A stretch of DNA of 6,926 nucleotides from a virus (IMGVR_UViG_2648501390_000002:1-6926), one strand, 5' to 3'; shown: positions 1-6,926, numbered from the stretch's first letter. The notes: generated from the sequence alone by a model not told the origin. Made by a program: numbers and translations.

Positions 1-129
1 GAGCAAGTAATAGAAATAAAGAAATCAAAGGGAGTTAATCAAAGAGAGCTTGCTAAAAAATACTGTGTCAGTCAGACGGTGATTCACAATATCCAGTCTG
101 GTAAATCGTGGAGGCATGTTAATGGCTGA
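1..129 (+). CDS. 3' end of an upstream gene (5' end outside window); the last 42 aa contain a helix-turn-helix-like segment
   Basis: Frame 1 is open from base 1 to TGA at 127-129 and translates [42 protein letters not shown]. The segment [21 protein letters not shown] has the spacing of a classic HTH (Gly turn, hydrophobic recognition helix). Its stop overlaps the start of the next gene (ATG 122), implying translational coupling. Only 42 aa are visible, so the fold assignment is tentative. Confidence 0.45.
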
Positions 130-1075
130 TTCGAATCTCAATGAGCCAGTAATCATTCAGGCTACGCGGCTCGATACATCAATCCTTCCACGCAATATCT
201 TCTCGCAGTCGTATCTGCTTTACGTTATCGCACAGGGTACTGATGTTGGTAACGTGGCTAACAAAGCCAACGAGGCCGGACAGGGCGCTTATGATGCACA
301 GGTCAGGAACGATGAGCAGGATGTCACCCTTGCAGACCATGAATCCAGAATTGAAGCAGCTGAAGCAACTCTCATCAATCATGAGCATAGAATTGCAGCA
401 GCGGAAAGCACTCTTGCAGATCATGAAACAAGGATTACGGCTGCTGAAACAGAGCTGGCTGATCACGAGACGAGAATTGCTGCCAATGAATCTGAGTTAG
501 CAAACCATGATGCGCGCATAACTCAGAATACAACCGATATCGACGCACTTGATACCAGGCTCACAGCGGCAGAGGGAAGTATTTCGACGCTACAAAGCAC
601 AGTTGGTGATCACTCAACAAGAATATCTGCGCTTGAGTATGCCACCACGCGCAAGAAATCAGAGGTTGTTTACTCAGGGGTATCTGTAACCATCCCGACA
701 GCGCCGACTAACCTTGTTAGCCTGCTGAAAACGCTCACGCCGTCATCCGGAACGTTGGCACCATTCTTCGACACCGTTAACAACAAGATGGTTGTGTTCA
801 ACGAGAACAAAACCCTGTTCTTCAAGCTGTCGATTGTCGGGACGTGGCCCAGTGGAACCGCCAACAGGTCAATGCAGCTAACCTTTTCCGGCTCTGTTCC
901 TGACACACTGGTAAGCAGTCGCAACTCGGCGACAACGACCGATAACATCCTGTTAGCTACGTTCTTCAGCGTGGATAAAGACGGCTTTCTTGCCACAAAT
1001 GGCAGCACGTTAACCATTCAGTCGAATGGTGCGTCGTTTACTGCCACAACCATCAAGATAATCGCGGAGCAGTAA
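122..1075 (+). CDS. Tail needle / cell-envelope-penetrating fiber (P22 gp26-like) with an extra C-terminal knob-like domain
   Basis: ORF-track ORF 116-1075. I prefer ATG 122 because GGAGG at 110-114 sits 7 nt upstream of it but only 1 nt upstream of ATG 116. The N-terminus [43 protein letters not shown] closely matches my recollection of the P22 gp26 N-terminus (from memory, not searched). The centre is five 14-aa coiled-coil repeats (ADHExRIxAAExxL). The protein is 317 aa versus about 233 aa for P22 gp26, and the extra about 150 C-terminal residues are beta-rich (S/T/N/G), as in knob-bearing needles of Sf6-type phages. Confidence 0.85.
332..541 (+). repeat. Five imperfect 42-bp tandem repeats inside the needle gene, encoding 14-residue coiled-coil units
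   Basis: Units at 332-373, 374-415, 416-457, 458-499 and a degenerate one at 500-541 encode [14 protein letters not shown] / [14 protein letters not shown] / [14 protein letters not shown] / [14 protein letters not shown] / [14 protein letters not shown]. Read directly from the sequence. Confidence 0.8.
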
Positions 1076-1530
1076 TGATTCAGTTCAAACCAACGCGAAA
1101 CATCGACCTGATAGAAGCCGTGGGAAATCACCCCGACATTATCACCGGGAGCAACAACGGTGATGGATACGACTACAAGCCTGAATGCCGTTACTTCGAG
1201 GTGAACGTGCACGGTCAGTTTGGCGGCATTGTTTACTATCAGGAGATTCAGCCGCTGACATTCGATTGCCACGCCATGTACCTGCCAGAGGTTCGTGGAT
1301 TCAGCAAGGAAATCGGGCTGGCGTTCTGGCGATACATTCTGACTAACACCACTGTTCAGTGTGTCACATCGTTCGCTGCACGCAAATTCCGCCACGGGCA
1401 GATGTACTGCGCAATGATTGGCCTTAAGCGTGTCGGAACCATCAAGAAATACTTTAAAGGCGTGGATGACGTGACTTTTTACAGCGCCACACGCGAAGAA
1501 CTAATCGACTTCCTGAATCACGGGAGATAG
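1075..1530 (+). CDS. Gene 14-like protein (position and size match P22 gene 14, associated with ejection-protein function/assembly)
   Basis: 151-aa ORF. Its ATG at 1075-1077 shares a base with the TAA stop of the needle gene (TAATG), and GGAG lies 5 nt upstream. The assignment rests on synteny (needle-14-7-20-16 order) and size; I do not recognise the sequence itself. Confidence 0.6.
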   Translation: MIQFKPTRNIDLIEAVGNHPDIITGSNNGDGYDYKPECRYFEVNVHGQFGGIVYYQEIQPLTFDCHAMYLPEVRGFSKEIGLAFWRYILTNTTVQCVTSFAARKFRHGQMYCAMIGLKRVGTIKKYFKGVDDVTFYSATREELIDFLNHGR

Positions 1531-1532
1531 CC

Positions 1533-2228
1533 ATGTTATATGCATTTAAGCTGGGCAGAAAACTGCGCGGCGAGGAACCTTATTGCCCTGAAAAAGGCGG
1601 GAAAGGTGGCTCCGATAAAAGTGCAAAGTATGCCGCAGAAGCTCAGAAGTATGCCGCAGACCTGCAAAATCAGCAGTTCAACACCATCATGAATAACCTG
1701 AAGCCGTTTACTCCTCTGGCTGAGAAGTATGTCGGTAGCCTCGAGAACTTATCGTCTCTGGAGGGGCAAGGTCAGGCACTTAACCAGTATTACAACTCTC
1801 AGCAGTATAAAGACCTTGCAGGTCAGGCTCGCTATCAGAGTCTGGCGGCAGCGGAAGCAACAGGTGGATTGGGTTCCACCTCAACCAGTAATCAGTTAGC
1901 AACAATCGCACCAACGCTTGGTCAGCAATGGCTATCTGGACAAATGAACAACTACCAGAATCTGGCAAATATTGGTCTTGGCGCGCTTCAGGGACAGGCA
2001 AACGCCGGGCAGACATATGCCAACAACATGAGCCAGATTTCACAGCAAAGCGCAGCACTGGCGGCGGCAAACGCTAACAGACCTTCCGGCCTTCAATCTG
2101 CAATAGGCGGGGCTGCCTCTGGAGCAATTGCTGGAGCACAGCTTGGCAGCATTGTTCCCGGTATTGGTACTGGTATTGGTGCCGCTGTTGGCGGCGGTCT
2201 TGGTCTTCTTGGTTCACTACTTTATTAA
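1533..2228 (+). CDS. Ejection (E) protein, P22 gp7-like
   Basis: 231 aa (P22 gp7 is about 229 aa, from memory). It starts 2 nt after the gene 14 stop. It has a basic N-terminal segment (MLYAFKLGRKLRGEEP...), a Gln/Ala/Asn-rich middle, and a Gly/Ala/Ile-rich hydrophobic C-terminus (GGAASGAIAGAQLGSIVPGIGTGIGAAVGGGLGLLGSLLY) suited to membrane insertion. Confidence 0.7.
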   Translation: MLYAFKLGRKLRGEEPYCPEKGGKGGSDKSAKYAAEAQKYAADLQNQQFNTIMNNLKPFTPLAEKYVGSLENLSSLEGQGQALNQYYNSQQYKDLAGQARYQSLAAAEATGGLGSTSTSNQLATIAPTLGQQWLSGQMNNYQNLANIGLGALQGQANAGQTYANNMSQISQQSAALAAANANRPSGLQSAIGGAASGAIAGAQLGSIVPGIGTGIGAAVGGGLGLLGSLLY

Positions 2229-2238
2229 GGGGTAATCA

Positions 2239-3582
2239 ATGGCTACGTGGCAACAGGGTATTAATTCTGGTGGTTTTCTGGCTGGCATCGGTGCGCAAAA
2301 TGAGAATGCGCCAAAGGCAAGCGACATTAACGCAACGCTTGGTCTGATCCGCGAAAACAATGAACTGGCTCGCTCAGGTGCAAATAACGTTGGTCTGACC
2401 GCGTTACGTGGTCTGGCTGGAGTTGCTGATATTTATAAGCAGCAGCAACAGCAGGAACGTAAAGCGGCATTCCAGAAAGGTTATGCAGATGCTTATGCGT
2501 CCGGCGACAGGGAGCAGATGCGTAATCTTATTACAGCATTCCCTGAAGAGTTTGAGGAAGTCCGTAAAGGCATGGGGTATGTCGATGATGCCCAGCGGGA
2601 TGATTTTGGCAATCTGGCGCTCAAGGCTCAGGTAGCTTCGTCGCTTGGTCCGGGCGCATTTGGCAGGTTCATGATGGATAACGAAAAGGAGATGCGTCGT
2701 TTAGGTATCCCTCCAGAAACTATTGCGGAAATGCAGGTTAATGACCCGCAGGGCTTCCAGCACTTCACAGGTAATCTGGCACTATTTTCTCTCGGTCATG
2801 AGAAGTATTTCGATATCAAAGATCGAATGGAGGGGCGTCGACTTGAGCAAGGGCGATTGGATGAAAGCATCCGTCAGGCTGACATGGAGAATGCGAGAGG
2901 ATGGGCAAATATCCAAAATGCTCAACTAGACAGGGCTCAGCGGGCACAAATGCACTCAGATGAGATGGGATTGAAGCTAATGGAGCTGGGGCAAAAAGGT
3001 AAGCCGTCAGCAGACTTAATTAAGGGATTAAATTCTGACATTACCAATTTTGGCAAAAATTATAACTCTGTCAGAGCGGCGGCAAACTCTCTGCAAGCCC
3101 TTAGCAAGGTAAATACTGGCGCTGCCCAACTTGGGATTATCTTTAATTACATGAAGTCTCTCGACCCTCAGTCAGTTGTTCGCGAAGGTGAACAGGTTCA
3201 GGTCATGCGCTCTGATGGCATATGGGGGCAGATAAAAGGATATGTAGACCAGCTTAATGCAGGGAATGGCTTGTCACAGGAAGCGAGGGATAACATTGTC
3301 AACGCAGCAAAAATTAACGCCAACGCTATGGGGCAGCAGTTTAACCAGCAGGTAGACGAATATCTGGATACGTATGGAGATACTATTCCTCAGGGGCTGA
3401 AAAAAAGTTTAGGGAGAAGGAAGGCCAAGCTATTTGACGATGTCCCAGCGCAGCCTACACCACAAGGTGGTAATGGGCAGACAAAAGCTGCGCCAAGTGG
3501 GATATCAGAAGGCGCGACGGCAACGAACCCTAAAACTGGTCAGAAACTCATTTATAGGAACGGACAATGGCAACCGATGTAG
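2239..3582 (+). CDS. Ejection (E) protein, P22 gp20-like
   Basis: 447 aa (P22 gp20 is about 471 aa, from memory). AAGGGG lies upstream of ATG 2239. It is third in the conserved 7-20-16 order, Gln-rich and predicted largely helical, and overlaps the next gene by 16 nt. Confidence 0.7.
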   Translation: MATWQQGINSGGFLAGIGAQNENAPKASDINATLGLIRENNELARSGANNVGLTALRGLAGVADIYKQQQQQERKAAFQKGYADAYASGDREQMRNLITAFPEEFEEVRKGMGYVDDAQRDDFGNLALKAQVASSLGPGAFGRFMMDNEKEMRRLGIPPETIAEMQVNDPQGFQHFTGNLALFSLGHEKYFDIKDRMEGRRLEQGRLDESIRQADMENARGWANIQNAQLDRAQRAQMHSDEMGLKLMELGQKGKPSADLIKGLNSDITNFGKNYNSVRAAANSLQALSKVNTGAAQLGIIFNYMKSLDPQSVVREGEQVQVMRSDGIWGQIKGYVDQLNAGNGLSQEARDNIVNAAKINANAMGQQFNQQVDEYLDTYGDTIPQGLKKSLGRRKAKLFDDVPAQPTPQGGNGQTKAAPSGISEGATATNPKTGQKLIYRNGQWQPM

Positions 3583-5690
3583 GTTTACCCGAAGGCTTTG
3601 TTCTCGATAATCAGCCTGATAACTCACAGCTTCCTGATGGCTTTGTGCTTGATTCCCAACCAGAACAGCAGCAATCTCCTTTGGTTTCACCAGAGGAAAA
3701 TTCCAGACAGGAAAATGTTGTTAATAATGCTAACGGTTTCGACCGTTTTATGTATGGCGTTCTCAGTGGATTGATGGATGTTGGTAAAGGTGTTGGCCTG
3801 TTTCAGGACATGACACCAGAAGAGCAAGCCGCAATTCAGTCTCTACAGCAGAAGTTAGCGGCAAAACCATCAACCGCACAAGATGTTGGTGAGTTCGTTG
3901 GACAAGCAGCACCATTTGTTAGTGGTGGTGGGATTATTTCTCAGGTTCCGAAAGGGGCGGCAAGGCTGGCTGCCGCCGCAGGGCTTGGTGCTGGAGAAGG
4001 GGCTATTGTAGCCAATGGAACAAATAGCGATGTTGCTTCCGGCGCTGCTATTGGCGCTGTGGCTGGCCCTGTAGCCGAGATTGTTGGTCCAGCGCTTGGG
4101 AAGATTGCAGGAAAAATTAAAAATAGTGCCGGAGATATTTATCGCTCATCCGTAGGGATGGGTAGTAAATCATCTAAAGCAACGTTAAAGAAAGCTGCTG
4201 GCGCAATGGATAATAAATTTATTGGTGGGCAACGAGCTATTCAAGATTTCGCCGATGAAGTTAATCCTGATTTTAACGCGATAAATGCTATTCGTGAGCT
4301 AGAACTGGAAAATTATGCCACTCCAGGCATGATCTCTAATAATCCTGCTGTCAGGGCTCTTGATAATGCAGTGGCAAGTCTCCCTGGAACAGAGATTAGT
4401 GAGGCGCATAAGCGTTTTATTACTGAATTAGGAAGAAAAGCTGATGAAATGATAACTTCATTTGGGGGAAACCTTGATAAGCAACTGGTTTCTGACAGGC
4501 TTGCAGATAATTTTGATAAAACCATTTCATCATTACAAAATCAGTCAGATAACATCTACAACAAAATTGCCGAAAAGGTACCTGTAAGAGACCGGATTGA
4601 GGCAACTAATACATTGAATTTTTTAGAGGATTTTGCTGATGACATAGGTGGAATTGATGAATTATCTCCAATAATGAAGCGGACATTGAACCGACTTGAT
4701 CCAAACACCTTGCCAACGTATGGGCGTTTAGATCTCGCTAGAAAGCAGGTTGGACAAGCTATTGGCAAAGGCTCTGGCCCATTCAAGGATGAAGAAACAG
4801 GTGTTCTTAAAAAGTTATATGCAGCCATAACAGATGACCAACAGGCTGTCGCAGAAAAATATGGCGCAGGGGAATTATGGACGCTTGGTAAGGAGTTGGT
4901 AAAAAAACGAAAATCCATTGAAGATGATGCTGTAACCGTCTTGGGTAGAAAACTTCAGCAATCAGCAATTCCAAAAGTTGAAAGTGCCGTTGTTAATATG
5001 GCAAAAGGAAACGGTGGTGACTTTAGGCAATTAATGAAGTCAATTCCAAAGGATATGCGGCAGGAAGTTGCGCTCACCTCAATGAATAAAGCATTTACCA
5101 GCTATGCCAAATCACCTGGTCAGCAATTAGGAGTTGATGGATTTGTAAAATGGTATAACGGAATGTCACGCAATGGGGCCAATATGAAGGCTCTCCGTGA
5201 TGCTATTGGCACAGATGCATCAAAGCGCCTTGATACGATTTATCAAGCAGCTAAGGCTATGAATAGACTCAATACTGGTAAGCAGTATGCTAGTAGCCTT
5301 GTGGATCAGCAAGTTAATAACTTTCTGAAAGAAAAGGGTAGTCTCGCAAAAATTTATGGAATAGCCTCAAAAGCTGCTGCGGCGGAAGGTATTACAAGCT
5401 TATCTGGTCTTCCTGGTGTAGGTGCAACAGGGGTGATAACGTCAGCATTGATGTCAGGGAAAACAAGCAGGATAAAGGCTGCTGATGCCCTACTGTCTTC
5501 TCCTGAGTTTAAATCAATGCTATTTCGCCTGCAAAACGCACCAGTAGACAGAGCAGAAGTGAGACGCGTAATAGAAAGGAAACTGATGCAATCTGGGGCA
5601 TTTAAGAGATGGGAGAAAACCTTATCAACAGATGAAGCAAAAACCATTGCCCGCACGGGGATTATTACATGGCTCGCTAGTGACAGTTAG
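3567..5690 (+). CDS. Ejection (E) protein, P22 gp16-like, with an N-terminal tandem peptide repeat and a compositionally distinct distal part
   Basis: 707 aa (P22 gp16 is about 609 aa, from memory). AGGAA lies 7 nt upstream of ATG 3567, and the start overlaps the gp20-like stop. It is the last gene of the co-directional block and has a Gly/Ala-rich segment (aa about 110-180). Confidence 0.7.
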   Translation: MATDVGLPEGFVLDNQPDNSQLPDGFVLDSQPEQQQSPLVSPEENSRQENVVNNANGFDRFMYGVLSGLMDVGKGVGLFQDMTPEEQAAIQSLQQKLAAKPSTAQDVGEFVGQAAPFVSGGGIISQVPKGAARLAAAAGLGAGEGAIVANGTNSDVASGAAIGAVAGPVAEIVGPALGKIAGKIKNSAGDIYRSSVGMGSKSSKATLKKAAGAMDNKFIGGQRAIQDFADEVNPDFNAINAIRELELENYATPGMISNNPAVRALDNAVASLPGTEISEAHKRFITELGRKADEMITSFGGNLDKQLVSDRLADNFDKTISSLQNQSDNIYNKIAEKVPVRDRIEATNTLNFLEDFADDIGGIDELSPIMKRTLNRLDPNTLPTYGRLDLARKQVGQAIGKGSGPFKDEETGVLKKLYAAITDDQQAVAEKYGAGELWTLGKELVKKRKSIEDDAVTVLGRKLQQSAIPKVESAVVNMAKGNGGDFRQLMKSIPKDMRQEVALTSMNKAFTSYAKSPGQQLGVDGFVKWYNGMSRNGANMKALRDAIGTDASKRLDTIYQAAKAMNRLNTGKQYASSLVDQQVNNFLKEKGSLAKIYGIASKAAAAEGITSLSGLPGVGATGVITSALMSGKTSRIKAADALLSSPEFKSMLFRLQNAPVDRAEVRRVIERKLMQSGAFKRWEKTLSTDEAKTIARTGIITWLASDS
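3585..3674 (+). repeat. Two 45-bp tandem repeats encoding LPEGFVLDNQPDNSQ / LPDGFVLDSQPEQQQ at the N-terminus of the gp16-like protein
   Basis: Direct read: 3585-3629 and 3630-3674 encode near-identical 15-aa units with the core LP[ED]GFVLD[NS]QP. Confidence 0.75.
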
Positions 5691-5914
5691 TCAACTTTGG
5701 TTATTTTGCCTTCTTTTTCTTGATGAACTTTGCATCCATCATCTTTTGATAGCCAAACTAAAAACTTTAAAACCTTAAACACAAGTAAGGCTACTGCAAT
5801 GAAAGCACCAATCGCAATTATTGCTAGCGAAATTATTTGCATTGGTGCTTTTAATGCAGGGAAAATAGTGTAAATGATCGCGAAAACAGTAATTATGAGG
5901 AACCATCGCTTCAC
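5687..5914 (-). CDS. Small inner-membrane protein (75 aa, two predicted TM helices, charged C-terminal tail); candidate superinfection-exclusion or membrane-acting accessory protein
   Basis: The ORF track gives 5687-5989 (100 aa from ATG 5989), but that ATG has no Shine-Dalgarno sequence. An in-frame GTG at 5914-5912 is preceded by a perfect AAGGAGG (complement of 5920-5926) with a 5-nt spacer. The product is VKRWFLIITVFAIIYTIFPALKAPMQIISLAIIAIGAFIAVALLVFKVLKFLVWLSKDDGCKVHQEKEGKITKVD: two hydrophobic stretches of about 18-23 aa, then a Lys/Asp/Glu-rich tail. Its stop (complement of 5687-5689) overlaps the gene 16 stop (5688-5690). Confidence 0.55.
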   Translation of the reverse strand: MKRWFLIITVFAIIYTIFPALKAPMQIISLAIIAIGAFIAVALLVFKVLKFLVWLSKDDGCKVHQEKEGKITKVD

Positions 5915-5978
5915 ACCAACCTCCTTAGTTTTGTGCAGGATACCAGATGATAATGTGTAGTTGGAGTAGCGCGGTTGT

Positions 5979-6070
5979 AATGCAAGCATTTTGTTTTGGT
6001 TTTATGCTTGCTTGTATGTGTGTACAGTGCATATAATGCAAGCATACATCACAATAAAGGTGCTTGCATT
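5979..6070. promoter_or_regulatory. Divergent control region with four copies of a near-palindromic operator-like motif (consensus AATGCWWGCATT)
   Basis: O1 at 5979-5990 is AATGCAAGCATT (perfect 5-bp inverted arms around AA). O2 at 6003-6014 is TATGCTTGCTTG (core ATGCTTGC). O3 at 6035-6046 is AATGCAAGCATA. O4 at 6059-6070 is GGTGCTTGCATT and abuts ATG 6071. Centre-to-centre spacings are about 23, 33 and 24 bp, with alternating AA/TT centres. Confidence 0.5.
6008..6037 (+). promoter_or_regulatory. Putative sigma70-type promoter for the rightward gene (-35 TTGCTT, 18-bp spacer, -10 TATAAT)
   Basis: TTGCTT at 6008-6013 and a consensus TATAAT at 6032-6037. O2 overlaps the -35 and O3 overlaps the -10/+1 region. 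AAAGG at 6055-6059 is a plausible RBS for ATG 6071. Not experimentally supported. Confidence 0.4.
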
Positions 6071-6926
6071 ATGACTGAAAAGAAAAGTGGCGAAGGGAAA
6101 GCTAAGGGCGGTATCGCTCGCGCAAAGTCGCTGACTAAAGAGCAGCGTTCTGAAATAGCAAAGAAAGCAGCGGCTGCAAGATGGAAGGATAAACCATTAA
6201 TTGCTACGCATAAGGGATCGTTCCAGCATGAATTCGGGATTGATGTTGAGTGCTATGTGTTAAATGATGATAACAAAACTGCCGTTATTAGCCAGAGAGG
6301 CATGGGAGAAGCGATTGGTCTTGGCGAAGGTGGCAGCAGGTTGCCAAAGTTTATTCAGGGGAAAACTATTTCTCAGTATATCGGGCATGAATTAAGGGCA
6401 AAACTTGAAAATCCTCTTATTTTTCAATACAAACAGGCGGGCACGAACACTCCAGCTAATCCTGTAATACATGGCTACGATGTAACAATATTAATTGATT
6501 TATGTCGAGCAATCTCTAATGCTAAAGCTGAAGGTAAGTTGCTTTCCAGTCAGGAAGGGATTGCTAAGCAAGCCAGAATCATTATTGATGCATCAGCCAA
6601 GGCGGGCATTCAGGGGCTTGTTTATGCTTTGGCAGGGTATGACAGAACAAAAGAAGAGGTAATTCAAGCATATAAGCGATATGTTGCTGAAGAGGCTCGT
6701 GAGTATGAAAGAGAGTTCACCCCTGAACTTTATGAGCATTGGTATCGTCTGTATGGTATAGACAAACCAGTTAGAGGGCGACCATGGGCGTTTAAATATC
6801 TTACGATAGATCACATTTATTACCCATTAGCCAGAAGTGAAGGAAAGGTATTTAATTTAGCAAAAACGTCAAAAGAAGAAAAAGGCAGCAAAAACGATAA
6901 AATACACCAGTTTTTATCAGAGGTTG
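6071..6926 (+). CDS. 5' part of a gene for a phage regulatory-type protein (P63C-domain / antirepressor-like family; 3' end outside window)
   Basis: Frame 2 is open from ATG 6071 to the window end (285 codons). It is missing from the ORF track, presumably because it has no stop in the window. The N-terminus MTEKKSGEGKAKGGIARAKSLTKEQRSEIAKKAAAARWKDK carries the basic motif GGxARAxxLTxEQRxEIAxKAAxARW, which I associate from memory with P63C-domain proteins that accompany Bro-N/KilA-N/Ant-type antirepressor domains. It is preceded by the operator/promoter region. Confidence 0.7.
   Translation, partial: MTEKKSGEGKAKGGIARAKSLTKEQRSEIAKKAAAARWKDKPLIATHKGSFQHEFGIDVECYVLNDDNKTAVISQRGMGEAIGLGEGGSRLPKFIQGKTISQYIGHELRAKLENPLIFQYKQAGTNTPANPVIHGYDVTILIDLCRAISNAKAEGKLLSSQEGIAKQARIIIDASAKAGIQGLVYALAGYDRTKEEVIQAYKRYVAEEAREYEREFTPELYEHWYRLYGIDKPVRGRPWAFKYLTIDHIYYPLARSEGKVFNLAKTSKEEKGSKNDKIHQFLSEV

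What the first reader, a model, noticed from the sequence alone, without database searches (positions are those of the whole stretch)
5687..6926. AT-rich accessory island directly downstream of the ejection-protein genes
Downstream of the gp16-like gene the sequence turns AT-rich and changes gene polarity (one leftward gene, a divergent control region, one rightward gene). This corresponds to the moron/immunity hotspot that follows gene 16 in P22. Taken together, the membrane protein, operator array and P63C-like gene look like a horizontally acquired, lysogen-regulated module rather than part of the virion operon.
Basis: inference. Interest (0 to 1): 0.6.

Follow-up and report, generated by a model that had tools for sequence, protein, structure and literature searches.

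The report
Self-regulated P63C cassette in prophage hotspot
The stretch after the DNA-ejection genes of this P22-like prophage is the already known swap-prone accessory region; it holds a small membrane-protein gene in the "sieA slot" and, separately, a widely travelling gene of unknown function that carries its own promoter framed by four conserved binding sites, most likely for its own product.

Summary
The gene layout is as described: one leftward gene (5687-5914), a 156-bp control region and one rightward P63C-domain gene (6071 to the window end). The "AT-rich turn" is only partly real, because GC already falls inside gene 16 at about position 4100.

The locus is the gene 16-gene 9 accessory hotspot of P22-like phages. 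A 34-bp stretch is identical to the P22 sieA start and leader. Content is variable: of 39 related loci, 21 carry the membrane gene and 3 carry the P63C gene.

It is two independently assorting units, not one module.
- **Unit 1** is a 75-aa two-segment membrane protein that is not a SieA homologue. It sits on the conserved sieA leader and is linked to this gene-16 allele.
- **Unit 2** is a self-contained cassette of four 10-bp sites (ATGCAAGCAT/ATGCTTGCAT) at 5980, 6004, 6036 and 6060. They overlap the -35, the -10/+1 and the ribosome-site/ATG region.

The same array precedes homologues in phages of alpha-, beta- and gamma-proteobacteria, down to about 30% protein identity. It is absent from the three homologues that lack the N-terminal basic motif. 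The best reading is autorepression through that motif. The protein's effector function is unknown, with a lysogen-expressed defence role a plausible guess. The hotspot is known; the conserved operator array appears undescribed.

The parts
3567..5690 (+). Gene 16-type ejection protein (context). GC drops from 0.50 to 0.42 at about 4100, inside this gene.
   Evidence: ORF; PF26808 Phage_P22_gp16 on the 707-aa gene-16 product at the same position in L009 (its similarity to the window's gp16 fell below the E 1e-5 tblastn cut-off); composition.
5687..5914 (-). 75-aa small membrane protein gene ('TM75') in the sieA slot. It has two hydrophobic segments (about residues 4-21 and 25-56) and a charged C-terminal tail. 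Its stop overlaps the gene 16 stop by 4 nt (TM75 TAA 5687-5689, gene 16 TAG 5688-5690).
   Evidence: translation, hydropathy. PHROG 7294 E 9e-48 covers residues 26-100 of the 100-aa ORF, which is the 75-aa form. Only 21 clusters, all E. coli or Salmonella, at 82-99% identity. No similarity to P22 SieA. No Pfam, PADLOC or NCBIfam hit.
5912..5945 (-). Conserved sieA-slot start codon, Shine-Dalgarno (AAGGAGG 5926-5920) and 5' leader. It is shared by all leftward genes at this slot whatever they encode, and is a recombination joint.
   Evidence: 100% identity to P22 13828-13861 in more than 40 phage records. Alignment of 8 loci with different leftward genes. Match ends at 5912/5913 and 5945.
5980..5989 (+). 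Operator O1, ATGCAAGCAT (upstream of the -35).
   Evidence: conserved at this relative position in 78 of 91 distinct homologous upstream regions.
6004..6013 (+). Operator O2, ATGCTTGCTT (inverted relative to O1). Its last 6 nt are the putative -35 TTGCTT.
6008..6037 (+). Putative promoter of the P63C-family gene: -35 TTGCTT (6008-6013), 18-nt spacer, -10 TATAAT (6032-6037). Predicted start is near 6044.
   Evidence: Read from the sequence. The same geometry (-35 inside O2, -10 ending in the first two bases of O3) appears in unrelated sequence backgrounds. It was NOT called by the consensus scan, because the -35 matches only 3 of 6.
6036..6045 (+). Operator O3, ATGCAAGCAT (covers the -10 end to +1).
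6060..6069 (+). Operator O4, GTGCTTGCAT (between the ribosome-binding site and ATG 6071).
6071..6926 (+). P63C-family gene, first 285 of 330 codons (cut by the window end).
   Evidence: One residue differs from P0001, 330 aa (99.6% by tblastn; listed as 100%). PF10546. PHROG 2384.
6095..6184 (+). N-terminal basic two-helix motif G9-W38 (GKAKGGIARAKSLTKEQRSEIAKKAAAARW), the candidate operator-binding module. An allele breakpoint follows immediately (about 6186).
   Evidence: Conserved in operator-linked homologues that are otherwise only 27-35% identical. Absent from L097, L100 and L104, which also lack the array. Helices 9-20 and 23-39 in the model. Shared at about 98% or more nucleotide identity between two alleles that are 54% identical at the protein level.
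6674..6922 (+). P63C domain (residues 202-284).

Best explanation
Window 5687-6926 is the left part of the hypervariable accessory region that lies between gene 16 and the tailspike gene in P22-like prophages. It holds two independent accessory units.

**Unit 1 (5687-5945, leftward).** A 75-aa membrane protein is expressed from the conserved sieA-slot leader. It is an allele-replacement of sieA, not a homologue. By position it is probably an inner-membrane protein made in the lysogen, possibly an exclusion factor; this is inference.

**Unit 2 (5980 to the window end, rightward).** A self-contained, horizontally mobile cassette comprises four 10-bp operators, a promoter embedded in them, and a 330-aa P63C-family protein. 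I propose that the protein binds its own operators through its N-terminal basic two-helix motif (residues 9-38). O2 covers the -35, O3 the -10/+1 and O4 the ribosome-binding region. The whole array is one dyad centred at 6024.5, which suits a symmetric oligomer.

Binding would shut off its own promoter, so the gene holds itself at a low, constant level wherever it lands, independently of the host phage's repressor and of the late operon. The rest of the protein (an alpha/beta domain with weak Bro-N-like fold hits, plus the helical P63C domain) carries the unknown effector function.

**Shown:** anatomy, mosaicism, family-wide co-occurrence of the array with the gene, and confinement of the sites to that promoter. 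**Inferred:** who binds, the repression, expression in the lysogen, and the effector role.
For: **Hotspot and variability**
- 34 bp are identical to the P22 sieA leader, with synteny to mnt-arc-ant-gene 9.
- TM75 is present in 21 of 26 loci with the close gene-16 allele and 0 of 13 with distant alleles. P63C is present in 3 of 39.
- E. coli genome counts are 34, 67 and 3.
- Published work reports that sieA lies between genes 16 and 9 and is present in only 22 of 66 P22-like phages (PMC10883804).

**The cassette is a unit**
- The identical array and promoter sit behind four different leftward genes and in front of two alleles only 54% identical.
- The same A-T-A-T array, with modal spacings of 24/32/24, occurs in 78 of 91 distinct upstream regions of homologues. 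These include a Magnetospirillum MAG, Duganella, IMG/VR phages and Salmonella phage ST104 ORF23. It occurs in 0 of 1,820 shuffled controls.
- Site density is 20.9 per kb in the 160-nt upstream window against 0.09 per kb in the remaining 809 kb of those loci.
- A blind DNA-pattern scan of 2.9 million viral contigs gave 40 loci. Of these, 34 were directly in front of a P63C-family gene in the right orientation, and a further one had the gene split by an IS.
- In the whole 45.9-kb phage 611R6 record the sites occur only at this promoter.
- No neighbouring gene is conserved across the 55 diverse loci, so the only constant protein is the P63C-family one.

**The N-terminal motif as the binding module**
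- It stays highly conserved while the rest falls to 27-35% identity and the operator sequence is unchanged.
- With the motif present, 83 loci have at least 2 sites and 5 have fewer. With the motif absent, 0 have at least 2 sites and 4 have fewer.
- The allele breakpoint falls right after codon 38.

**Accessory-type placement elsewhere**
- In 23 of 55 diverse loci a CI-like repressor gene lies nearby; in the clearest cases it is directly upstream on the same strand, 87-400 nt away, sometimes behind a terminator.
Against: - There is no experimental or expression evidence of any kind.
- The promoter is my reading. The consensus scan did not call it because the -35 is weak.
- The three motif-less, array-less homologues are related to each other and may represent a single evolutionary event, so the association test overstates independence.
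- Five motif-bearing homologues have degenerate or absent sites, including the 933W copy in the nin region.
- Five of the 40 pattern hits lie next to unrelated genes.
- Symmetric base changes in paired sites fit a hairpin as well as a dimeric protein.
- TM75 has no homologue of known function, and its promoter could not be located. P22's annotated PsieA is not conserved beyond the 34-bp leader.
Confidence: 0.6

Rival explanations
1. One reading: the membrane gene, the operator array and the P63C gene form one acquired module with a shared divergent control region governed by the prophage's lysogeny regulators.
For: The two genes are divergent and only 156 bp apart. O1 lies about 65 bp from the leftward start codon, so it could influence a leftward promoter. 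Both are accessory and variably present.
Against: - The parts assort independently. 21 loci have TM75 and only one of them (L015) also has a P63C gene. The P63C cassette sits behind at least four different leftward genes.
- The array follows the P63C gene into alpha- and beta-proteobacterial phages that have no TM75, no sieA leader and different immunity regions.
- L006 has TM75 with the same leader but no array.
Confidence: 0.08
2. The four sites are bound by some other factor, not by the P63C-family protein. Candidates are a conserved host protein or another phage regulator (Mnt, Arc, C2/CI, LexA).
For: No binding data exist. An imperfect LexA-like TTGT-N8-ACAG lies in the promoter spacer (6012-6027), with better versions in some enterobacterial relatives. 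Five pattern hits lie beside unrelated genes.
Against: - The array is found almost only in front of this gene family (34-35 of 40 blind hits) and nowhere else in a whole phage genome.
- It persists across hosts from alpha- to gamma-proteobacteria and across phages with unrelated immunity regions.
- It disappears together with the protein's N-terminal motif.
- The LexA-like element is in the spacer, not in the four sites, and lacks the invariant C of CTG.
Confidence: 0.1
3. The inverted repeats work at the RNA level. In transcripts that enter from upstream (the late operon in P22-like phages, or the cI transcript elsewhere), O3 pairs with O4 and hides the ribosome site and AUG, so only transcripts from the cassette's own promoter are translated. 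This would be a fold-back insulation like that of IS10 transposase. It could act in addition to operator binding.
For: RNA 6030-6085 folds into a 14-bp hairpin of -16.4 kcal/mol (z -4.8) that includes the AU of the AUG. RNA starting at the predicted +1 (6044-6100) has no significant structure (z 0.65). O1/O2 also pair (-10.3 kcal/mol, z -2.2). Some O3/O4 end changes are complementary. That late transcription crosses this region in P22 is recalled from the literature and was not checked here.
Against: - The core TGCAAGCA is invariant (94-100%) instead of covarying, which is the signature of sequence-specific recognition.
- O1/O2 lie upstream of the -35, and their fixed register with the -35 and -10 is unexplained by RNA pairing.
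- Many O3/O4 end changes are not compensated.
- Rfam has no such family.
Confidence: 0.12
4. The region is core: the same genes are conserved at this position in all related phages.
For: TM75 is frequent (21 of 26) among loci with this particular gene-16 allele.
Against: TM75 is absent from all 13 loci with other gene-16 alleles. P63C is present in 3 of 39. The interval length ranges from 1.9 to 5.2 kb, and P22 itself has sieA-orf59a instead.
Confidence: 0.02

Closest known systems
P22 sieA / immI region (between genes 16 and 9)
   Same: Same genomic slot. The start codon, ribosome site and 34-nt leader are identical to sieA, the gene is leftward and encodes a membrane protein, and mnt-arc-ant-tailspike follow in relatives. 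The region is known to be variably occupied (PMC10883804).
   Different: The leftward protein is 75 aa with two hydrophobic segments and no detectable similarity to SieA (164 aa, three TM segments, FxRYPxEAxxFNK motif). P22 has no P63C cassette, and P22's annotated PsieA sequence is not conserved here.
BstA-aba prophage defence (Owen et al. 2021, PMC8585504)
   Same: BstA is a single ~300-aa prophage protein with an N-terminal DNA-binding-type domain. It is found across alpha-, beta- and gamma-proteobacteria and typically sits just downstream of the cI repressor, as ST104 ORF23 and many P63C homologues do. A short DNA element spans the region just upstream of, and the first bases of, its own gene.
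   Different: No sequence relationship was found; the PADLOC scan returned no family for any of the three proteins. aba is one 63-bp, homologue-specific element shown to give self-immunity. Here there are four copies of a 10-mer that is nearly invariant across the family, positioned as promoter operators. No defence phenotype is known.
Phage morons and lysogen-expressed genes beside the repressor (lambda rexAB type)
   Same: An autonomous transcription unit is inserted between conserved genes, is present in some relatives and absent in others, has lower GC than the virion genes, and elsewhere sits after a terminator downstream of cI.
   Different: The cassette brings its own repressor-operator circuit instead of relying on a constitutive promoter or on the cI transcript. 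Its own terminator could not be examined because the window ends inside the gene.
Bro-N / KilA-N proteins with a C-terminal P63C domain (Mx8 p63; Iyer et al. 2002, recalled from the Pfam entry)
   Same: The P63C domain scores above the Pfam threshold. Foldseek against viral models lists Mx8 p63 and many Bro-N, 'repressor domain' and antirepressor proteins.
   Different: No Pfam Bro-N or KilA-N match at E up to 1 in any of 36 members. The fold hits are weak (E 1e-3 or more, TM 0.2-0.3). The N-terminal basic motif and the operator array are not part of that description.
IS10 'fold-back inhibition' of read-through transcripts (recalled from the literature)
   Same: An inverted repeat has its upstream arm lying before the element's own transcription start, so only outside transcripts can form the hairpin that covers the start codon.
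   Different: Here the repeat sequence itself is conserved family-wide and duplicated upstream of the promoter, which points primarily to protein binding.

Membership tests
SieA superinfection-exclusion proteins (types A-C, PMC10883804) | Gene lies between homologues of P22 genes 16 and 9 in a P22-like prophage | tested here: met
   Directly after gene 16, on the sieA leader. Gene 9 follows in relatives.
SieA superinfection-exclusion proteins (types A-C, PMC10883804) | Sequence similarity to a SieA type | tested here: not met
   BLASTP against P22 SieA (type A) gives best E 3.5. The homologue search finds only 21 near-identical clusters, all unnamed or called 'hypothetical protein'. Types B and C were not compared directly.
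SieA superinfection-exclusion proteins (types A-C, PMC10883804) | About 160-200 aa with three or more transmembrane segments and the cytoplasmic motif FxRYPxEAxxFNK | tested here: not met
   75 aa with two hydrophobic stretches and no such motif in the sequence.
SieA superinfection-exclusion proteins (types A-C, PMC10883804) | Blocks DNA injection by P22-like phages | not testable with these tools
   Needs plaque or potassium-release assays.
P63C domain family (Pfam PF10546) / PHROG 2384 | Profile match above the curated threshold | tested here: met
   33.8 bits against 26.1. All 36 aligned homologues match. PHROG 2384 E 7e-90.
Moron (autonomous accessory transcription unit in a phage genome) | Present in some close relatives and absent from others at the same position | tested here: met
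   P63C in 3 of 39 loci and TM75 in 21 of 39.
Moron (autonomous accessory transcription unit in a phage genome) | Own promoter | tested here: inconclusive
   Perfect TATAAT with a weak -35. The geometry is conserved across unrelated backgrounds, but the consensus scan did not call it and there is no transcript mapping.
Moron (autonomous accessory transcription unit in a phage genome) | Own terminator | not testable with these tools
   The window ends inside the gene. A terminator upstream of the cassette is seen in L066, L067 and ST104.
Moron (autonomous accessory transcription unit in a phage genome) | Nucleotide composition differs from neighbouring genes | tested here: inconclusive
   GC is 0.35-0.42 against 0.49-0.51 for genes 26, 14, 7 and 20, but equal to the 3' 1.6 kb of gene 16.
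BstA defence family | Match to the BstA profile | tested here: not met
   No PADLOC family at E up to 0.1 for the window protein or for the L005 allele.
BstA defence family | Cognate DNA self-immunity element overlapping the gene start | tested here: inconclusive
   A conserved DNA array overlaps the promoter and start. Its function is untested, and unlike aba it is not homologue-specific.
Bro-N / KilA-N DNA-binding domain proteins | Profile or fold match to Bro-N or KilA-N | tested here: inconclusive
LexA (SOS) box | CTGT-N8-ACAG palindrome | tested here: not met
   6012-6027 is TTGT-N8-ACAG, so the conserved C is missing. No matrix score was computed.

The most novel reading that the evidence does not exclude
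The P63C-family cassette is a widespread single-gene prophage defence (abortive-infection or exclusion) module. In this reading the invariant four-site array is more than an autoregulatory operator. As in BstA-aba, it would act as a DNA 'self' signal: when the resident phage replicates, the multiplying arrays titrate or redirect the protein. Because the array is the same across the family, all carriers would be mutually immune. The N-terminal motif plus operators would be a detachable control module, and the Bro-N-like plus P63C part would be the effector.
Probability: 0.15. Interest if true: 0.75.

Novelty: new variant of a known kind. Interest (0 to 1): 0.5.

Why it matters
The island itself is ordinary. 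Specialists already know that the gene 16-gene 9 interval of P22-like phages is a mosaic accessory region.

What is worth keeping is the cassette. The search returned 2,662 proteins at E <= 0.001 in phages and prophages of alpha-, beta- and gamma-proteobacteria, with no assigned function. The family carries a nearly invariant four-operator promoter and an N-terminal motif that appears and disappears with it.

This gives three things:
- a concrete, cheap experiment (gel shift and reporter) on an uncharacterised but common prophage gene;
- a sequence signature (ATGCAAGCAT-N14-ATGCTTGCAT, twice) that finds the family by DNA alone;
- a candidate portable autoregulation module.

Its habitual positions, just after cI or next to sieA/immI, are where lysogen-expressed defence genes such as rexAB, bstA and sieA sit, so it is a reasonable candidate for a new defence gene. 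The 75-aa protein on the sieA leader, tightly linked to one gene-16 allele, is a second small candidate for an exclusion factor.

Tried and rejected
- **Literature.** Searches for 'P63C', 'P63C domain' plus phage, and the 10-mer itself found nothing on function or on the array.
- **Defence annotation.** PADLOC, NCBIfam and Pfam gave nothing beyond the P63C domain for either protein.
- **Structure.**
  - The AlphaFold model was mediocre (pLDDT 68.8).
  - A profile search of PDB sequences hit only designed repeat proteins, which I treat as spurious.
  - Foldseek against viral models gave only weak Bro-N-type hits.
  - No fold assignment was made.
- **Partner gene.** Clustering of all flanking ORFs in 55 diverse loci found no conserved partner; the only recurrent neighbour is a CI-like repressor in 23 loci. 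Two 480-aa neighbours, in Duganella and Variovorax, turned out to be unrelated.
- **Leftward promoter.** Neither the scan nor an alignment with P22's annotated PsieA located one. Only the 34-bp leader is shared.
- **RNA families and tRNAs.** None were found; there were only far-sub-threshold miRNA-precursor hits caused by the large dyad.
- **LexA box in the promoter spacer.** Considered and not accepted, because the sequence is TTGT rather than CTGT.

Full report
**What is in the window.** Positions 116-5690 encode, rightward, a P22-type tail needle, gp14, gp7, gp20 and a 707-aa gp16-type ejection protein. In the related locus L009 the genes at the same positions carry the precomputed Pfam families DUF2824, P22_gp7, Inj_translocase and Phage_P22_gp16.

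After the gp16 stop the polarity changes. A leftward ORF runs 5687-5989 by its first ATG. A 156-bp spacer follows, and a rightward ORF starts at ATG 6071 and runs off the end of the window. The rightward product has a P63C domain above the Pfam threshold (33.8 against 26.1 bits, residues 202-284) and matches PHROG 2384, of unknown function, at E 7e-90.

**Checking the observation.** The compositional claim is only partly right.
- The finding region has GC 0.401 against 0.472 for the rest of the window.
- The drop happens inside gene 16 at about 4100.
- The last 1.6 kb of gene 16 has GC 0.416, the same as the P63C gene (0.417).
- Only the small leftward gene (0.346) and the spacer (0.391) are lower.

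The repeated 10-mer is real. ATGCAAGCAT with at most one mismatch occurs six times in the window, four of them within 90 bp. Shuffles average 1.36, and none of 200 reaches six.

**The leftward gene.** Its real start is almost certainly GTG 5914-5912, five bases after AAGGAGG, which gives 75 aa. The supporting evidence:
- The PHROG 7294 profile is 75 positions long and matches residues 26-100 of the long ORF.
- RefSeq annotates the 228-nt form in one genome.
- Most database members are 75 aa.

The protein has two strongly hydrophobic stretches and a charged tail. Positions 5912-5945 (start codon, ribosome site and leader) are 100% identical to the start and leader of P22 sieA in dozens of phage records. 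Homology to P22 ends there, so P22's annotated PsieA is not shared.

The protein is not similar to P22 SieA. It also lacks the length, the third membrane segment and the FxRYPxEAxxFNK motif that a recent study gives for SieA types A-C (PMC10883804). Other prophages have quite different coding sequences (109, 134, 140 and 164 aa) on the same leader. The 'sieA slot' is therefore a fixed expression platform with exchangeable cargo. The family is tiny: 21 clusters, all E. coli or Salmonella, at 82-99% identity.

**Is it a variable island?** Yes.
- I fetched 47 IMG/VR loci with a relative of this gp16, and 39 extend at least 1.5 kb beyond it.
- Among the 26 with the close gp16 allele, 21 carry the 75-aa gene and 2 carry a P63C gene.
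- Among the 13 with distant alleles, none carries the 75-aa gene and one carries a P63C gene.
- The distance from the gp16 stop to the tailspike gene ranges from 1.9 to 5.2 kb.
- In 5,426 complete E. coli genomes the 75-aa gene occurs in 34. The spacer plus the first 38 codons of the P63C gene occurs in 67. The body of this P63C allele occurs in 3.
- Matches end at window positions of about 5912/5913, 5945-5967 and 6186.

It agrees with published knowledge that sieA lies between genes 16 and 9 and is present in only a third of P22-like phages.

**Two units, not one.** The 75-aa gene follows the gene-16 allele; their stop codons overlap. The four sites and the P63C gene always travel together. 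They sit behind at least four different leftward genes and in front of two alleles that are only 54% identical in protein. Those two alleles share the spacer and the first 38 codons at about 98% or more nucleotide identity. A locus with the 75-aa gene and no P63C gene also lacks the sites.

**The array belongs to the gene family, not to P22-like phages.** This was the main unexpected result. Upstream of homologues in a Magnetospirillum MAG and in Duganella (61-68% identical protein, unrelated flanks), the same four sites appear in the same order and orientation.

I then collected 80 more homologous loci from viral contigs with a family alignment.
- Of 91 distinct upstream regions, 78 have the four-site A-T-A-T architecture with modal start-to-start spacings of 24, 32 and 24.
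- None of 1,820 shuffled controls has it.
- The core TGCAAGCA is 94-100% conserved at every site.
- Site density is 20.9 per kb in the 160 nt upstream against 0.09 per kb in the other 809 kb of these loci.

As a test blind to the protein, I scanned 2.9 million viral contigs for ATGCAAGCAT-N11-17-ATGCTTGCAT. Of the 40 loci returned, 34 have a P63C-family gene starting right after the match in the right orientation. One more has the gene split by an IS. Several of these proteins are only 27-35% identical to the query.

Salmonella phage ST104 ORF23 (32% identical) has the array directly after the cI terminator. The 933W homologue, embedded in the nin region, does not have it. In the complete record of phage 611R6 the sites occur only at this promoter.

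**Geometry.**
- O2's last six bases (TTGCTT here, TTGCAT in most relatives) sit 18 nt before a hexamer that ends in the first two bases of O3. Here that hexamer is a perfect TATAAT at 6032-6037.
- O3 then covers -8 to about +2.
- O4 fills the space between the ribosome site and the ATG; in many relatives the ATG overlaps O4.
- O1 lies one 24-bp step upstream.
- The four sites are symmetric about 6024.5.

This register is kept in backgrounds of very different GC content. The consensus promoter scan did not call the promoter because the -35 matches only three of six positions, so the promoter remains an inference. Sites on the -35, the -10/+1 and the initiation region would repress.

**Who binds?** No flanking gene is conserved across 55 diverse loci. 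The only constant protein is therefore the P63C-family one itself.
- Its N-terminal motif G9-W38 (two predicted helices) remains highly conserved in the divergent homologues that keep the same operator, while the rest of the protein falls to about 30% identity.
- Three homologues (L097, L100, L104) are about 70% identical in the body but have an unrelated Pro/Lys-rich N-terminus, and they have no sites at all.
- With the motif present, 83 loci have at least two sites and 5 have fewer. With the motif absent, 0 have at least two sites and 4 have fewer, one of the four being the IS-split copy.
- These three homologues are related to each other, so this may be one evolutionary event rather than three.
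- The allele breakpoint right after codon 38 fits a module made of 'operators plus binding motif'.

I therefore propose autorepression through the N-terminal motif. This is inferred, not shown.

**What the protein does.** This is unknown.
- Pfam, NCBIfam and PADLOC add nothing, and the literature is silent.
- The model (pLDDT 68.8) has an alpha/beta domain at 43-137 and a helical C-terminal half.
- Foldseek against viral models lists Mx8 p63 and many Bro-N, 'repressor domain' and antirepressor proteins, all weakly.

Placement is suggestive. In 23 of 55 diverse loci a CI-like repressor gene lies nearby; in the clearest cases it is directly upstream on the same strand, 87-400 nt away. That is the position of lambda rexAB and of bstA. 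Here the gene sits beside the sieA slot and immI.

BstA is a useful comparison. It is a single prophage protein with a DNA-binding-type N-terminal domain, encoded after cI. A 63-bp DNA element across its own gene start gives self-immunity (PMC8585504). No sequence relationship to BstA was detected. Unlike aba, the array here is invariant across the family. My best guess is a lysogen-expressed accessory, possibly defence, function kept at a fixed low level by autorepression. I put the defence reading at no more than about one in four.

**Rivals.**
- An RNA mechanism is possible as an addition. If a transcript enters from upstream, O3 and O4 form a 14-bp hairpin (-16.4 kcal/mol, z -4.8) that covers the start. 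A transcript from the predicted +1 is unstructured. This would insulate the gene from read-through, as in IS10.
- However, the invariant core sequence, the O1/O2 pair upstream of the promoter and the fixed register with the promoter hexamers all argue that protein recognition is primary.
- A foreign regulator (host factor, Mnt/Arc, CI, LexA) is unlikely given the family-specific distribution across host classes and immunity types, and the co-loss with the N-terminal motif.
- The 'core region' alternative is refuted.

**Verdict.** The island is ordinary. The conserved four-operator, self-contained P63C-family cassette appears to be undescribed and is directly testable.

Noticed in passing
window 3567-5690, break near 4100: GC falls from about 0.50 to about 0.42 inside gene 16, and GC3 is low throughout the gene. 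This suggests a mosaic joint within the ejection-protein gene itself. The 98%-identical variant in L026-L029 also ends 9 nt earlier and has a different downstream gene.
   Followed up: partly
window 6012-6027: An imperfect LexA-box-like palindrome, TTGT-N8-ACAG, lies in the spacer of the P63C promoter. Enterobacterial relatives keep it (L105, L116, L118). L066 and L067 have CTGAATGGTTATACAG, which resembles the ssb/uvrA box as I recall it. This is a possible SOS input and was not scored with a matrix.
   Followed up: partly
L097, L100, L104 (P63C homologues from IMG/VR): These three homologues are about 70% identical in the body. Each has a Pro/Lys-rich N-terminus in place of the basic motif, has no operator array, and lies downstream of a CI-like gene (327-1275 nt). 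They look like natural 'regulatory-module-less' versions, perhaps co-transcribed with cI.
   Followed up: partly
L148 3924-6144; E. coli GPEC1405 (hit H33): Copies of the P63C gene are interrupted by insertion sequences: an IS3-type element after codon ~38 in L148, and an IS5 family transposase in GPEC1405.
   Followed up: no
L003 7992-8528, L004 6205-6741, L009 11047-11583: A 178-aa ClpP-like protease subunit gene lies immediately downstream of, and co-oriented with, the mnt-like gene in the immI region of several E. coli P22-like prophages.
   Followed up: no
L154 6440-6471 and L160 4814-4845: The same inverted 10-mer pair, with a 12-nt gap, occurs once each in AT-rich viral contigs. It sits next to homologous small genes that are unrelated to the P63C family. 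L141, L143 and L162 also have one pair beside unrelated genes.
   Followed up: partly
L180 10249-11691 (Duganella): The Duganella copy of the cassette sits next to an IS and a 480-aa protein that matches the PADLOC candidate defence family HEC-07 (E 9e-70). The Variovorax copy sits next to an integrase.
   Followed up: partly
window 116-1075: The tail-needle gene is 319 aa with tandem ADHETRI-type coiled-coil repeats and an extra C-terminal part. In L009 the gene at the needle position encodes 233 aa. L009 also has an HNH/NUMOD4 endonuclease gene inserted just upstream of the needle gene.
   Followed up: no
window 5972-6079: The whole operator array forms one long imperfect palindrome centred at 6024.5. 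It draws far-sub-threshold Rfam hits to eukaryotic miRNA precursors (22-30 bits against gathering scores of 90-119), which are artefacts of the dyad.
   Followed up: yes
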